From the human T2T-CHM13v2.0 reference genome, Homo sapiens: DNA of 64,000 nt. Under the pieces are notes generated by a model. It was not told the origin of the DNA, made no database searches, and was given only the letters and a program-made list of their open reading frames with translations. Below, one piece after another: positions 11,441 to 47,997 of the stretch (positions within the stretch are counted from its first letter, which is position 1; each line of letters opens with the position of its first letter). The position numbers and the translations under genes were made by a program. The stretch is from NCBI RefSeq assembly GCF_009914755.1, contig NC_060930.1. One strand, written 5' to 3'.

Positions 11441-14215
11441 GGTCAAACGTTTAAGTCTTTAATCCATCTTGAATTGATTTTTGTATAAGGTGTAAGGAAG
11501 GGATCCAGTTTCAGCTTTCTACATATGGCTAGCCAGTTTTCCCAGCACCATTTATTAAATAGGGAATCCTTTCCCCATTGCTTGTTTTTCTCAGGTTTGT
11601 CAAAGATCAGATAGTTATAGATATGCGGCGTTATTTCTGAGGGCTCTGTTCTGTTCTATTGATCTATATCTCTGTTTTGGTACCAGTACCATGCTGTTTT
11701 GGTTACTGTAGCCTTGTAGTATAGTTTGAAGTCAGGTAGTGTGATGCCTCCAGCTTTGTTCTTTTGGCTTAGGATTGACTTGGCGATGTAGGCTCTTTTT
11801 TGGTCCCATATGAACTTTAAAGTAGTTTTTTCCAATTCTGTGAAGAAAGTCATTGGTAGCTTGATGGGGATGGCATTGAATCTGTAAATTACCTTGGGCA
11901 GTATGGCCATTTTCATGATATTGATTCTTCCTGCCCATGAGCATGGAATGTTCTTCCATTTGTTTGTATCCTCTTTTATTTCATTGAGCAGTGGTTTGTA
12001 GTTCTCCTTGAAGAGGTCCTTCACATCCCTTGTAAGTTGGATTCCTAGGTATTTTATTCTCTTTGAAGCAATTGTGAATGGGAGTTCACTCATGATTTGG
12101 CTCTCTGTTTGTCTGTTGTTGGTGTATAAGAATGCTTGTGATTTTTGTACATTGATTTTGTATCCTGAGACTTTGCTGAAGTTGCTTATCAGCTTAAGGA
12201 GATTTTGGGCTGAGACAATGGGGTTTTCTAGATATACAATCATGTCGTCTGCAAAGAGGGACAATTTGACTTCCTCTTTTCCTAATTGAATACCATTTAT
12301 TTCCTTCTCCTGCCTAATTGCCCTGGCCAGAACTTCCAACACTATGTTGAATAGGAGTGGTGAGAGAGGGCATCCCTGTCTTGTGCCAGTTTTCAAAGGG
12401 AATGCTTCCAGTTTTTGCCCATTCAGTATGATATTGGCTGTGGGTTTGTCATAGATAGCTCTTATTATTTTGAAATACGGCCCATCAATACCTAATTTAT
12501 TGAGAGTTTTTAGCAAGAAGGGTTGTTGAATTTGTCAAAGGCCTTTTCTGCATCTATTGAGATAATTATGTGGTTTTTGTCTTTGGCTCTGTTTATATGC
12601 TGGATTACATTTATTGATTTGCGTATGTTGAACCAGCCTTGCATTCCAGGGATGAAGCCCACTTGATCATGGTGGATAAGCTTTTTGATGTGCTGATGGA
12701 TTTGTTTTGCCAGTATTTTATTGAGGATTTTTCCATCAATGTTCATCAAGGATATTGGTCTAAAATTCTCTTTTTTGGTTGTGTCTCTGCCAGGCTTTGG
12801 TATCAGAATGATGCTGGCCTCATAAAATGAGTTGGGGAGGATTCCCTCTTTTTCTATTGATTGGAATAGTTTCAGAAGGAATGGTACCAGTTCCTCCTTG
12901 TACCTCTGGTAGAATTCGGCTGTGAATCCATCTGGTCCTGGACTCTTTTTGGTTGGTAAGCTATTGATTACTGCCACAATTTCAGATCCTGTTATTGGTC
13001 TATTCAGAGATTCAACTTCTTCCTGGTTTAGTCTTGGGAGAGTGTATGTTAGACCTAAAACCATAAAAACCCTAGAAGAAAACCTAGGCATTACCATTCA
13101 GGACATAGGCATGGGCAAGGACTTCATGTCTAAAACACCAAAAGCAATGGCAACAAAAGACAAAATTGACAAATGGGATCTAATTAAACTAAAGAGCTTC
13201 TGCACAGCAAAAGAAACTACCATCAGAGTGAACAGGCAACTACAAAATGGGAGAAAATTTTCGCAACCTACTCATCTGACAAAGGGCTAATATCCAGAAT
13301 CTACAATGAACTCAAACAAATTTACAAGAAAAAAACAAACAACCCCATCAAAAAGTGGGCAAAGGACATGAACAGACACTTCTCAAAAGAAGACATTTAT
13401 GCAGCCAAAAAACACATGAAAAAATGCTCATCATCACTGGCCATCAGAGAAATGCAAATCAAAACCACAATGAGATACCATCTCACACCAGTTAGAATGG
13501 CAATCATTAAAAAGTCAGGAAACAACAGGTGCTGGAGAGGATGTGGAGAAATAGGAACACTTTTACACTGTTGGTGGGACTGTAAACTAGTTCAACCATT
13601 GTGGAAGTCAGTGTGGCGATTCCTCAGGGATCTAGAACTAGAAATACCATTTGACCCAGCCATCCCATTACTGGATATATACCCAAAGGACTATAAATCA
13701 TGCTGCTATAAAGACACATGCACACGTATGTTTATTGCGGCATTATTCACGATAGCAAAGACTTGGAACCAACCCAAATGTCCAACAATGATAGACCGGA
13801 TTAAGAAAATGTGGCACATATACTCCATGGAATACTATGAAGCCATAAAAAATGATGAGTTCATGTTCTTTGTAGGGACATGGATGAAATTGGAAATCAT
13901 CATTCTCAGTAAACTATCACAAGAACAAAAAACCAAACACCGCATATTCTCACTCATAGGTGGGAATTGAACAATGAGATCACATGGACACAGGAAGGGG
14001 AATATCACACTCTGGGGACTGTTGTGGGGTGGGGGGAGTGGGGAGGGATAGCATTGGGAGATATACCTAATGCTAGATGACAAGTTAGTGGGTGCAGCGC
14101 ACCAGCGTGGCACATGTGTACATATGTAACTAACCTGCACAATGTGCACGTGTACCCTAAAACTTAAAGTATAATAATAAAAGAAAATAAATAAATAAAT
14201 GAATTACCTAAAAAG
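11441..14215 (+). mobile_element. 5'-truncated, 5'-inverted L1PA2-type LINE-1 (inverted part 11441-13049, sense part 13048-14215)
   Basis: ORF2 RT on the minus strand, ORF2 C-terminus and 3'UTR on the plus strand; 3'UTR GAGATCACATGGACACAGGAAGGGGAATATC is L1HS/PA2-type, without the ACA/ACG Ta mark; 15-bp TSD AAAAAATTAGCCAGG (11426-11440 / 14216-14230). Confidence 0.95.
11656..13049 (-). pseudogene. L1 ORF2p reverse-transcriptase fragment (one frameshift, one stop)
   Basis: Track ORFs 12510..13097 and 11656..12516 contain [22 protein letters not shown] and LFADD; 1-bp deletion near 12531; TGG>TAG at ~11657. Confidence 0.95.
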
Positions 14216-45625: not shown

Positions 45626-47997
45626 ACGATGAGATCACATGGACACAGGAAGGGGAATATCACACTCTGGGGACTGTTGTGGGGTCGGGGGAGGGGGAAG
45701 GGATAGCATTGGGAGATATACCTAACGCGAGATGACGAGTTAGTGGGTGCAGCGCACCAGCATGCACATGTATACGTATGTAACTAACCTGCACAATGTG
45801 CACATGTACCCTAAAACTTAAAGTATAATAATAAAAAAAAAGAAAAATGTTCACCAAAAAAAAAAAAACCTAATATAAGATTAAATTTTTTACCTCCATT
45901 TTATTTTCCTATTTAATCAACTATTTGGACAGTCAAGATAAATGCCAATTATTTTACCTGTTACCATAAATGACTCATAACCATTGACAAATCTATAGGT
46001 ATTCACTTCCTAAGGGAAAGAAAAATCACACATTTTTTACATGGTCATTTTCTGTTTAACCTTAGTTAGACGTTGAATGGACTTGATATATCCCACAGAA
46101 GAGGCCCAGTACTTAAAGACCAGTCTCCATGTTAGCTGACCAATTTCTGCAGTTCTAGATAGAGTACCAACTGGGATATTTTTTAAACTTTCAGAATTAC
46201 TAAGTCTTCATTTTTTAAAAATAATTTCTTTTAGTTATCTGAACAATATTTCTATCAACTCCACAGAAAATCATATTTGCGTATAGGTAAGGAAAATGGG
46301 AGATGGTGAAGACAGAAAATATAGGTAAATAGGTAAATACGAATTGCGTTTTTATTTTAGTACAAAGACCAAAGCTGATAGGGAAAGAGATTAATGAGGC
46401 AAAGTGGATGGATTAAATTCTCAAATAAAAATAATAAATCTATTTAATGTACCCAGCATGCAATGTCCTAACTTGCCATGGAATCATCCAGTGAAATGTT
46501 CAATACATGGGATTTCAAATTTTCAGTGATAAAACTGCCTAGAACTTGGCTAATTTCAGTCAATCCTCAAAGCTTAGCTCTTTTAGCCCTTCTTGGACTC
46601 CCCTCTACCCATTCCCCTGAAAACACTTTATGCTCTCAGAGGACCCAGTGTATGCTTTATCCACTGCTTCTGTGGTTCTCAATACATTTGTTTATTTACA
46701 AGTTTGTTTGTTTTTTTAAATCTTCAGTAGACAATAAACAACTTAAAGCCAAAATATGGACCATATTAGGCAATACATATTTAGTAAAGGAAAGAGCATT
46801 ATTAAAAGTGAAAATTATTGCTTAAATGAGTGAGTAAACAAATGAATAATTCTAAATGTCACTCTGTTTTACTGCTTCTGGAGTGTTTTAATGTGAACAG
46901 ACTGAATTATAGTATTTTTAGAGTGCTTGGTAAAATGTGAAATAGTACCAAAGATATACAACAAAACTTTAACTTATATATTTGTGGTTTTTTTCCCCAA
47001 TCATTTATAGTTCTAGACCAAAGTATTTATTTTCTTTCTGGGGGAAGTTTACTAATTTATGAGTAGAACACTAATCTTTCAAAGAAAGTTATACATTTTT
47101 CCATGATTAGTGGGAAAAAGTGAACTAAAGCTTCAAGATGAAGAAAGATAGCTTCATTATTTAAACAGCTCTACTAACATATAGCACTTGTAATATATTC
47201 TGAATATCTATAATTCCCCACAAGTGGAAAGACTATGTCAATTATCTATTGTGTTATCTTTCAGCCTAATGAATTCTGCACTCACATATTAAACTTGAAG
47301 AGTGTTTTAGCGCCAGCAGAGTTCACTGAGAACATTGAAACACAAACAAAATGGATGACTTGCCAAATTCATCCAACTGACTTACAACTAGGACCCAAGT
47401 ATGCGGAGTCCCAGTGCAGTGCTCTTATACAACAGTATCCTGTCTTTGAGCTTGCATTTGCAGGCATTTTCAAAAGAGCATAGGGGACAGGGAATGAACA
47501 AAACATAAGATACAATTTTAGAAAAGTGCAAAACAATTTCAATTAATTACAGATAGATATTATATTGCCATATTATGTTTCAGAATTCTAGTTTATATAA
47601 TTTTAGAATAATAAAGAAAACAATTTAAATGTAATATTCCATAGTACAGTAGGAAGACATTATTGAGGGGCATTTTAACCCTTGTTTTATTTGAGGATAA
47701 CTTAAAATACAAAGAACACATATTTTCAACCATCAGTTATGGTAACGCAATATTCAAAGTTATAATGAACTCAAGTTTCTGAGATATCTTTTTTCAATGT
47801 CAAAAATATTTAACATTTTTTATCAAAATAGAGATGCCTATTCTCTGAGGTGTTGAATGGTAGAAGTGGCTATAGAATAAATATCATTCATTTCATTAGA
47901 AATCCATTTTTCTTTATGGCAAATATTTAAAATATTAGATTTATGTATAAATTGTTTAGGTCCATAATTAAATATCATTAAAAATGACTGACTTTCA

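What the first reader, a model, noticed from the sequence alone, without database searches (positions are those of the whole stretch)
11441..45865. Two L1PA2 copies 30 kb apart share private mutations, including an ORF2 frameshift: likely ectopic gene conversion across an inversion junction
Seen: the truncated L1 (A) and the full-length L1 (B) carry the same unusual states: GGG[C]CGTAT (A12480/B43672; GPY instead of GTY), AAA[T]GGT (12295/43857; EING instead of EIKG), GCC[TA]CATC (11789-90/44362-63; RAYI instead of RARI), TA[T]AAC (11617/44535), and the same 1-bp loss in GGCAAC-TACAAAATGG (13240/44896; RQLQ instead of RQPT). By eye they differ at ~11 sites across B 43640-45086 (<1%), but ~17 sites in B 43102-43640 (~3%) and ~25-30 sites in B 45087-45830 (~3.5-4%). 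They also have different TSDs and different 3' tail inserts. Established: L1 mobilisation shows cis preference, and this frameshift removes the C-terminal CCHC region, so it should not be a heritable subfamily trait. Inference: two independent insertions were partly homogenised afterwards. The homogenised block is contiguous in B but split in A (11441-12510 inverted, 13048-13430 direct), so it needs conversion in both orientations or a template switch. Consensus states are from memory.
Basis: partly seen in the sequence, partly recalled or inferred. Interest (0 to 1): 0.8.

Follow-up and report, generated by a model that had tools for sequence, protein, structure and literature searches.

The report
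Gene conversion between two neighbouring L1s
Two separately inserted LINE-1 copies 30 kb apart in introns of the human TRDN gene have exchanged about 1.4 kb of sequence after insertion, an ordinary kind of repeat-to-repeat gene conversion with an unusual geometry because one copy is internally inverted.

Summary
Copy A (11441-14191) is a twin-primed, 5'-inverted L1; copy B (39846-45865) is full-length. Each has its own target-site duplication. They differ at 16/539, 11/1446 and 29/759 sites in the left flank, central block (B 43637-45086) and right flank. No such interval arose in 0 of 2000 permutations.

In trees, A and B are sisters in the block (100/98 support) but not in the flanks, where 3% of bootstrap trees join them. 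Genome-wide, A is B's best non-self match for the block among the 40 candidates scored of 2148.

The shared variants are not private one by one. They occur in 4, 65, about 10, 6 and 4 places in the genome. A chr2 copy shares three of them, so part of the set marks a rare sublineage. Only A and B carry the whole set among the 71 other places examined.

Best reading: post-insertion non-allelic gene conversion (about 0.72). It is patchy and leaves an unconverted stretch (44650-44816) around A's inversion junction. The direction is unsettled; A to B is slightly favoured.

This is a new instance of a known process and of modest interest. Ape orthologues and human haplotypes would decide it; I could not reach either.

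The parts
11426..11440 (.). Left target-site duplication of copy A (AAAAAATTAGCCAGG), lying inside an Alu
   Evidence: same 15-mer at 14216-14230
11441..13049 (-). Copy A, inverted 5' arm; corresponds to B 44711-43102
   Evidence: 98.4% over 1610 columns, reverse orientation
13048..14191 (+). Copy A, direct 3' arm; corresponds to B 44704-45845, followed by a degenerate A-rich tail to 14215. L1 positions 44704-44711 occur in both arms and 2 nt are shared at the junction, as expected for twin priming.
14216..14230 (.). Right target-site duplication of copy A
11503..12515 (-). Homogenised tract 1 in A (B 43637-44649): 7 differences in 1013 bp. Carries 43672C, 43857T, 44169T, 44362T, 44363A and 44535T.
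   Evidence: about 31 differences expected, P(<=7) 2.6e-7
12516..13047 (-). Unconverted part of A's inverted arm (B 43102-43636): 16 differences from B, 10 of them states rare or absent in other copies
13161..13430 (+). Homogenised tract 2 in A (B 44817-45086): 0 differences in 270 bp. Holds the shared 1-bp loss at A 13240 / B 44896.
   Evidence: 8.2 differences expected, P(0) 2.6e-4
13431..14191 (+). Unconverted 3' part of A (B 45087-45845): 29 differences from B
39835..39845 (.). Left target-site duplication of copy B (AAACCTAATAT)
39846..45865 (+). Copy B, full-length L1 with a poly(A) tail interrupted by a short insert. ORF1 and ORF2 are both broken; the RT domain is present.
45866..45876 (.). 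Right target-site duplication of copy B
43637..45086 (+). High-identity block in B: 11 differences from A in about 1450 bp
44650..44816 (+). Patch inside the block where A and B still differ (44650, 44662, 44707, 44816). It straddles the L1 position (44704-44711) at which A's two arms end.
   Evidence: P(>=4 of 11 here) 0.03
43608..43633 (+). B-only cluster: five substitutions within 20 bp, plus 43608, directly left of the block edge. Unique in the genome and coincides with the gap in NCBI's repeat mask (43618-43631).
44896..44946 (+). Site of the shared 1-bp loss in B and the out-of-frame stretch down to the stop at 44944-44946

Best explanation
A and B are two independent L1 insertions of the same young (L1PA2-like) type. 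After both had inserted, about 1.4 kb of L1 sequence (B 43637-45086) was made alike by non-allelic (ectopic) gene conversion between them.

The converted sequence carries a rare haplotype. Part of it is inherited from a minor L1 sublineage that also left copies on chr2 and chr20: 43672C, 43857T, 44169T and 44362T. Part is seen together only here: 44363A, 44535T and the 1-bp loss.

Conversion was patchy. It touched both arms of the twin-primed copy A, one inverted and one direct relative to B. It stopped short of the two homology ends, leaving 44650-44816 unconverted.

Shown: separate insertions, a discrete tract, incongruent trees, and the rarity of the combination. Inferred: the mechanism, the direction and the number of events.

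I lean to A as donor and B as recipient (about 0.6, given that conversion happened). On that reading one long resected or heteroduplex stretch of B paired with both arms of A in a single complex event, and the B-only mutation cluster at 43608-43633 is the repair scar. The 1-bp frameshift in B's ORF2 would then have been imported from a dead, truncated neighbour.
For: 1. Independent insertions. The TSDs, tails and structures differ.
2. Discrete tract. Divergence is 0.76% in the block against 3.0% and 3.8% in the flanks. 0 of 2000 permutations match this. About 44 block differences are expected from the flanks and 11 are seen.
3. Incongruent trees. A and B are sisters in the block with 100/98 support. 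In the flanks both sit unresolved inside the young group, and 3% of bootstrap trees join them.
4. Genome-wide rank. A is B's best non-self match for 43637-44649 among the 40 candidates scored of 2148. For the last 759 bp, A is not among the 40 scored of 6648.
5. Rarity plus linkage. 43672C occurs in 4 places against 1636 for the common word. Two of the four lie 31 kb apart, with a chance of about 1e-4. 0 of 71 other places carry the full set.
6. True private changes in the flanks. The best non-self matches to A's and B's 3' parts are 98%. Neither copy was simply copied whole from the other.
7. Direction, weak evidence for A to B.
   - The block is one stretch in B but two separated, oppositely oriented pieces in A.
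   - The B-only cluster abuts the block edge (chance about 0.04).
   - Outside the converted patches, A matches the chr2 and chr20 relatives at 43608G, 44236A and 44816A, whereas B has young-type or private states there.
8. Precedent. [quoted passage not shown] 35; the reference-list title of that paper, Tremblay et al. 2000, concerns a break in a mouse chromosomal LINE) and propose an intrachromosomal conversion into a truncated/inverted L1.
Against: - No outgroup or second haplotype could be examined, so the pre-conversion state is inferred, not seen.
- Part of the shared set is a lineage signature (chr2 copy). This weakens the argument from shared rare variants. Only 44363A, 44535T and the 1-bp loss remain joint to A and B, and each of these recurs elsewhere.
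- The margin in the genome-wide ranking is modest: 1796 bits for A against 1769 for the next copy, out of 1828.
- Only the 40 best candidates are scored per search, so counts from those searches are lower bounds.
- The comparison copies were picked by similarity to B or by carrying one of the variants, not at random.
- In both A and B the block holds about three times fewer own changes than the flanks (8 vs 23 and 5 vs 13; p 0.016 and 0.09). A simple one-way transfer does not predict this for the donor.
- The carrier of the block is itself a mosaic, with young-type flanks and a chr2-like middle.
- If A was the recipient, two separate events are needed.
Confidence: 0.72

Rival explanations
1. 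Common descent only. A and B are two offspring of the same rare L1 sublineage, or A is a retrotransposed daughter of B. The shared states were inherited through RNA and no DNA exchange occurred after insertion.
For: A chr2 copy shares 43672C, 43857T, 44169T, 44236A and 44362T, and a chr20 copy shares 43672C and 44535T. A heritable sublineage with part of the set therefore exists. A and B are the same young type at diagnostic sites in the flanks too.
Against: Inherited similarity should decay evenly after insertion. Instead the block has 11 differences where about 44 are expected from the flanks. A and B are not sisters in the flanks. Two of only four carriers of 43672C lying 31 kb apart has a chance of about 1e-4. 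A source with the ORF2 frameshift would have needed mobilisation in trans (established knowledge, recalled). Differences cluster next to A's homology ends (p 0.03), which an RNA-stage origin does not predict.
Confidence: 0.08
2. A third donor. A cleaner member of the chr2-like sublineage converted one or both copies, possibly followed by A-B exchange. The donor would be a DNA copy now absent from this genome, or its cDNA.
For: Both A and B have about three times fewer own changes in the block than in their flanks. Both have young-type flanks around a chr2-like middle. [quoted passage not shown] 35), and that reference's title (Tremblay et al. [quoted passage not shown]
Against: No such donor exists in this assembly. 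The 43672C word has only 4 places, and the chr2 and chr20 copies are far too diverged. It needs at least one more event, and it does not explain why A and B share the same block edges.
Confidence: 0.12
3. Assembly or polishing artefact. Reads from one L1 were used to correct the other, creating false shared states.
For: None from the calls. It is a generic risk for near-identical repeats.
Against: The block keeps 11 real differences and is patchy. Both copies are short enough (2.8 and 6.0 kb) to be spanned by long reads together with their unique flanks (inference). The shared states include lineage markers that are also present on chr2.
Confidence: 0.03

Closest known systems
Non-allelic (interlocus) gene conversion between dispersed retrotransposon copies, best documented for Alu
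   Same: A discrete tract of raised identity between two nearby copies of one family. Flanks stay at background divergence, the copies remain in place with intact TSDs, and neighbouring variants move together. Passages read in PMC6598467 and PMC8230782 describe the process. They say it is commonest between close neighbours (within about 10 kb for Alu) and is often partial.
   Different: Here the partners are L1s 31 kb apart and the tract is about 1.4 kb, longer than an Alu. One partner is internally inverted, so one L1 stretch corresponds to two pieces of opposite orientation.
L1-L1 gene conversion in repair of a break inside a LINE (Tremblay, Jasin and Chartrand 2000), and the NCLI34 locus of Sen et al. 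2007
   Same: L1 sequence is overwritten from another L1. For NCLI34 the authors propose an intrachromosomal conversion into a truncated/inverted L1 (passage read in PMC1920257).
   Different: I saw Tremblay et al. only as a reference-list entry and one citing sentence. That work is in cultured mouse cells. NCLI34 involves the insertion of a diverged middle segment, not the homogenisation of two arms.
Twin priming (5' inversion of L1 insertions)
   Same: A has an inverted 5' arm and a direct 3' arm drawn from adjoining L1 coordinates. The arms share an 8-bp overlap and 2-nt junction microhomology, and one TSD pair encloses both.
   Different: Twin priming explains A's shape only. It does not explain the similarity to B.
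Multi-invasion and template switching in homologous recombination (yeast work; recalled, not looked up here)
   Same: One broken molecule using two donor segments would give one stretch in the recipient and two in the donor, with a gap where homology ends.
   Different: This is purely an analogy. Nothing in the calls shows a single event.

Membership tests
   B spans 39846-45865 and is flanked by the TSD AAACCTAATAT.
   Pfam RVT_1, E 1e-46, in 42613-44943. ORF1 and ORF2 are both interrupted.
   No consensus library is held here. I only show that A and B group with the youngest of three haplotype groups among the sampled copies.
Twin-priming product | Inverted 5' arm and direct 3' arm from adjoining L1 coordinates, enclosed by a single TSD pair | tested here: met
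   The arms end at L1 44711 and 44704, with an 8-bp overlap. The TSD pair is at 11426-11440 and 14216-14230.
Non-allelic gene conversion | Discrete tract of raised identity with flanks at background divergence | tested here: met
Non-allelic gene conversion | Phylogenetic incongruence between tract and flanks | tested here: met
   sisters in the block (100/98), not sisters in the flanks.
Non-allelic gene conversion | Copies otherwise unrelated in origin, with different insertion sites and TSDs | tested here: met
Non-allelic gene conversion | Pre-conversion state visible at the orthologous locus of an outgroup or another haplotype, which also gives the direction | not testable with these tools
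   No ape genome or second human haplotype is held.
Heritable L1 sublineage as the sole cause | The whole variant set recurs in unlinked copies | tested here: not met
   0 of 71 other places carry the whole set. The best is the chr2 copy, with 3 of the 6 listed states.

The most novel reading that the evidence does not exclude
The block is the footprint of one complex germline recombination event. A single broken, resected end of the full-length L1 (B) paired at the same time with both arms of the twin-primed L1 (A), one inverted and one direct. Patchy mismatch repair then left B's own states where A's homology ends (44650-44816) and left a five-substitution repair scar at the break (43608-43633). 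This would be a natural human example of multi-donor (multi-invasion-like) repair between dispersed repeats. It would also show a dead, truncated L1 passing a frameshift to a full-length neighbour.
Probability: 0.2. Interest if true: 0.55.

Novelty: new member of a known kind. Interest (0 to 1): 0.33.

Why it matters
- Dating. Conversion between dispersed L1s distorts age estimates based on divergence from a consensus, and it distorts source-lineage trees. Here a 1.4-kb stretch looks three to five times younger than the rest of the same two elements.
- Spread of defects. Disabling changes such as the ORF2 frameshift can spread between copies without retrotransposition, so a shared defect is not proof of a shared source.
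- Orientation. The internally inverted partner gives a rare built-in marker for how repair uses homology in both orientations.
- Structural risk (inference, not tested). A's inverted arm and B form 1.6-kb inverted repeats around a TRDN coding exon. The same pairing could in principle mediate an inversion.

Tried and rejected
- **B as a chimera of two L1s.** I asked whether non-allelic recombination between two L1s explains why B's last 759 bp hold more private changes. Rejected: B has a matching TSD at both ends, and the 3' part diverges faster in all pairs.
- **The old L1 at 19328-21937 as source.** I asked whether it supplied the private states or B's cluster. Rejected: it shares only 2 of A's 14 listed private states (43317, 43524) and 1 of the 5 cluster states.
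- **Another genomic source for the cluster.** None exists within one mismatch.
- **Direction from densities of own changes.** First counts suggested that A's block had been overwritten. After calibrating against other copies, both A and B show the same roughly threefold deficit, so this does not discriminate.
- **42685G as a sign that B belongs to the chr2/chr20 lineage.** Rejected: 4 of 5 close full-length copies have G there.
- **Mutation spectrum.** B's 3' part shows A-to-G 6 against T-to-C 1, and weak-to-strong 8 against strong-to-weak 2. In an A-rich strand I judged this not significant and did not pursue it.
- **Steps that could not be done.**
A smaller request later gave the 3' ends of the chr2 and chr20 copies.
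  - Loci for the best block matches could not be cut out.
- **Literature.** Four searches found no paper describing conversion between a twin-primed L1 and a neighbour. The library lacks most subscription journals, so this is not proof of absence.
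Full report
**Anatomy**

Copy A is a 5'-truncated, 5'-inverted L1.
- Window 11441-13049 is the reverse complement of B 43102-44711.
- Window 13048-14191 is colinear with B 44704-45845.
- The two arms share L1 positions 44704-44711 and 2 nt at their junction.
- One 15-bp target-site duplication (TSD) pair encloses both arms (11426-11440 and 14216-14230). It lies inside an Alu. This is the shape expected from twin priming.

Copy B (39846-45865) is full-length.
- It has its own 11-bp TSD at 39835-39845 and 45866-45876.
- ORF1 and ORF2 are both interrupted. The longest ORF2 piece, 42613-44946, holds the RT domain.

A and B lie in different TRDN introns, on either side of the exon at 32680-32757 (hub annotation).

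**The observation**

A and B differ at 56 positions.

| Region (B coordinates) | Differences / length |
|---|---|
| 43102-43640 | 16 / 539 |
| 43641-45086 | 11 / 1446 |
| 45087-45845 | 29 / 759 |

All five shared states and the shared 1-bp loss are at the stated coordinates. The loss puts B's ORF2 out of frame, with a stop at 44944-44946.

The unevenness is not chance.
- Chi-square p is 2.7e-6, and 1.5e-5 after allowing for regional rates.
- 0 of 2000 permutations give an interval as depleted as 43637-45295.
- Among six young-type copies from elsewhere, all 15 pairs differ by 1.79-3.24% in the block. A and B differ from those six by 1.86-2.69%, and from each other by 0.76%.
- In the flanks, A against B (3.0% and 3.8%) looks like any other pair.

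**Are the shared variants private?**

No. Exact-word searches of the whole assembly, A and B included, give:

| Variant | Places in the genome |
|---|---|
| 43672C | 4 (common word: 1636) |
| 43857T | 65 |
| TA at 44362-3 | 9, plus A |
| 44535T | 6 |
| 1-bp loss | 4 |

- The two other carriers of the loss are 5'-truncated chr17 copies of different subtypes. One of them lacks 44535T, so the loss recurs independently.
- A chr2 copy (L035/L047) has 43672C, 43857T and 44362T, plus the older-type states 44169T and 44236A that the block also shows.
- A chr20 copy (L038) has 43672C and 44535T.
- So a rare sublineage exists, and part of the shared set is its signature.
- Still, none of the 71 other places I examined has the whole set. 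These were 83 loci minus 10 that are A or B themselves and 2 duplicates.
- The 71 were chosen by similarity to B or by carrying one variant. They are not a random sample.

**Why exchange after insertion is still needed**

1. Both flanks carry many changes that no other copy has. The best non-self matches to A's and B's 3' parts are only 98%. The two elements have therefore aged separately for a long time.
2. At subtype-diagnostic sites, both flanks are ordinary young-type.
3. Trees put A and B together in the block with 100/98 support. In the flanks they sit unresolved among young-type copies, and 3% of bootstrap trees join them.
4. Genome-wide, A is B's top non-self match for 43637-44649 among the 40 scored of 2148 candidates. 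The margin is modest: 1796 bits against 1769 for the next copy, out of 1828. For the 3' part, A is not among the 40 scored.
5. Two of only four carriers of 43672C lie 31 kb apart, with a chance of about 1e-4.

Inherited similarity alone would have decayed evenly. From the flanks about 44 block differences are expected, and 11 are seen.

**Fine structure**

The 11 block differences are clustered (p about 0.02).
- Three lie at 43884-43905.
- Two lie at 44219-44236.
- Four lie at 44650-44816.
- Two are isolated, at 44347 and 44495.

The 44650-44816 patch straddles the L1 position where A's arms end (p 0.03). In A's own layout there are therefore two homogenised pieces:
- 11503-12515, inverted relative to B, with 7 differences in 1013 bp;
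- 13161-13430, direct, with 0 differences in 270 bp.

They are separated by about 650 bp of unconverted A sequence. Both pieces are individually significant. This fits heteroduplex or tract formation that cannot reach the ends of homology.

**Direction**

Direction is not settled.

In favour of A as donor:
- The block is one stretch in B but two in A, so a single event suffices only if B is the recipient.
- B has five private substitutions within 20 bp at 43614-43633. They are unique in the genome and directly abut the block edge (chance about 0.04).
- Outside the converted patches, A agrees with the chr2 and chr20 relatives at 43608G, 44236A and 44816A, while B does not.

Neutral or against:
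- Nothing specific favours B as donor. 42685G, which B shares with those relatives, turned out to be the common state.
- In both copies the block holds about three times fewer own changes than the flanks.
- The block's carrier is itself a mosaic of young-type flanks and a chr2-like middle. A cleaner third donor therefore cannot be excluded.

**Timing**

If only the two isolated differences post-date the event, the exchange is recent relative to the insertions. It might be human-specific or even polymorphic. This is inference. I could not calibrate it or look at other genomes.

**Comparison with what is known**

- Gene conversion between dispersed repeats is well described for Alu, and is commonest among close neighbours (passages in PMC6598467 and PMC8230782).
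[quoted passage not shown] 35, Tremblay et al. 2000, whose title concerns a break in a mouse chromosomal LINE). It also proposes an intrachromosomal conversion into a truncated/inverted L1 (passages and one reference-list entry).
- A 2026 preprint lists gene conversion among the processes that blur L1 lineage structure (one passage in PMC13192797).
- My four searches found nothing on co-conversion of both arms of a twin-primed L1.

**Verdict**

This is a real and statistically solid case of a known process, with an instructive geometry. It is not a new kind of system.

Noticed in passing
window 43608-43633: B-only cluster of five substitutions within 20 bp (plus 43608) in the RT-coding region. 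It is unique in the whole genome at up to 1 mismatch. It coincides with the gap in NCBI's repeat mask (43618-43631) and sits at the left edge of the A/B block.
   Followed up: partly
window 11100-11440 and 14216-14400: Copy A is inserted inside an Alu. The TSD is Alu sequence, and the Alu's right half with its poly(A) continues after 14230.
   Followed up: no
window 19328-21937: An older L1 fragment on the + strand, 74% identical to B 43121-45703. It is not the source of A's or B's private states, sharing 2 of A's 14 listed private states and 1 of the 5 cluster states.
   Followed up: yes
L035/L047 (G000 C2:163026030-163029246) and L038 (C20:30656808-30659841): These two unlinked, well-diverged L1 copies share 43672C, 43572T and 44816A with each other. 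Their 3'-end states are of an intermediate type. Together with the A/B block they define a rare sublineage whose variant pattern is not tree-like: the chr2 copy has 43857T but not 44535T, and the chr20 copy the reverse.
   Followed up: partly
L003/L033 (G000 C17:474573-478073) and L034 (C17:48221708-48224739): Two 5'-truncated L1s of different subtypes carry the same 1-bp loss as A and B, but not the neighbouring shared variants. The loss is recurrent.
   Followed up: partly
window 45087-45845: B's own changes in its last 759 bp are skewed: weak-to-strong 8, strong-to-weak 2, with six A-to-G on the sense strand. Three of them create CpG dinucleotides (45686, 45726, 45729).
   Followed up: no
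window 11441-13049 versus 43102-44711: A's inverted arm and B form 1.6-kb inverted repeats (98.4% identical) about 30 kb apart. They enclose the TRDN exon at 32680-32757 and two TRDN-AS1 exons, so they are a possible substrate for an inversion by non-allelic recombination.
   Followed up: no
window 39527-39846: The last annotated exon of TRDN-AS1 ends about 320 bp upstream of B's 5' end, on the same strand as B.
   Followed up: no
window 40009-40035: A second small cluster of B-only changes (40011, 40020, 40035) in the 5' UTR. It coincides with another gap in the repeat mask (40009-40033).
   Followed up: no
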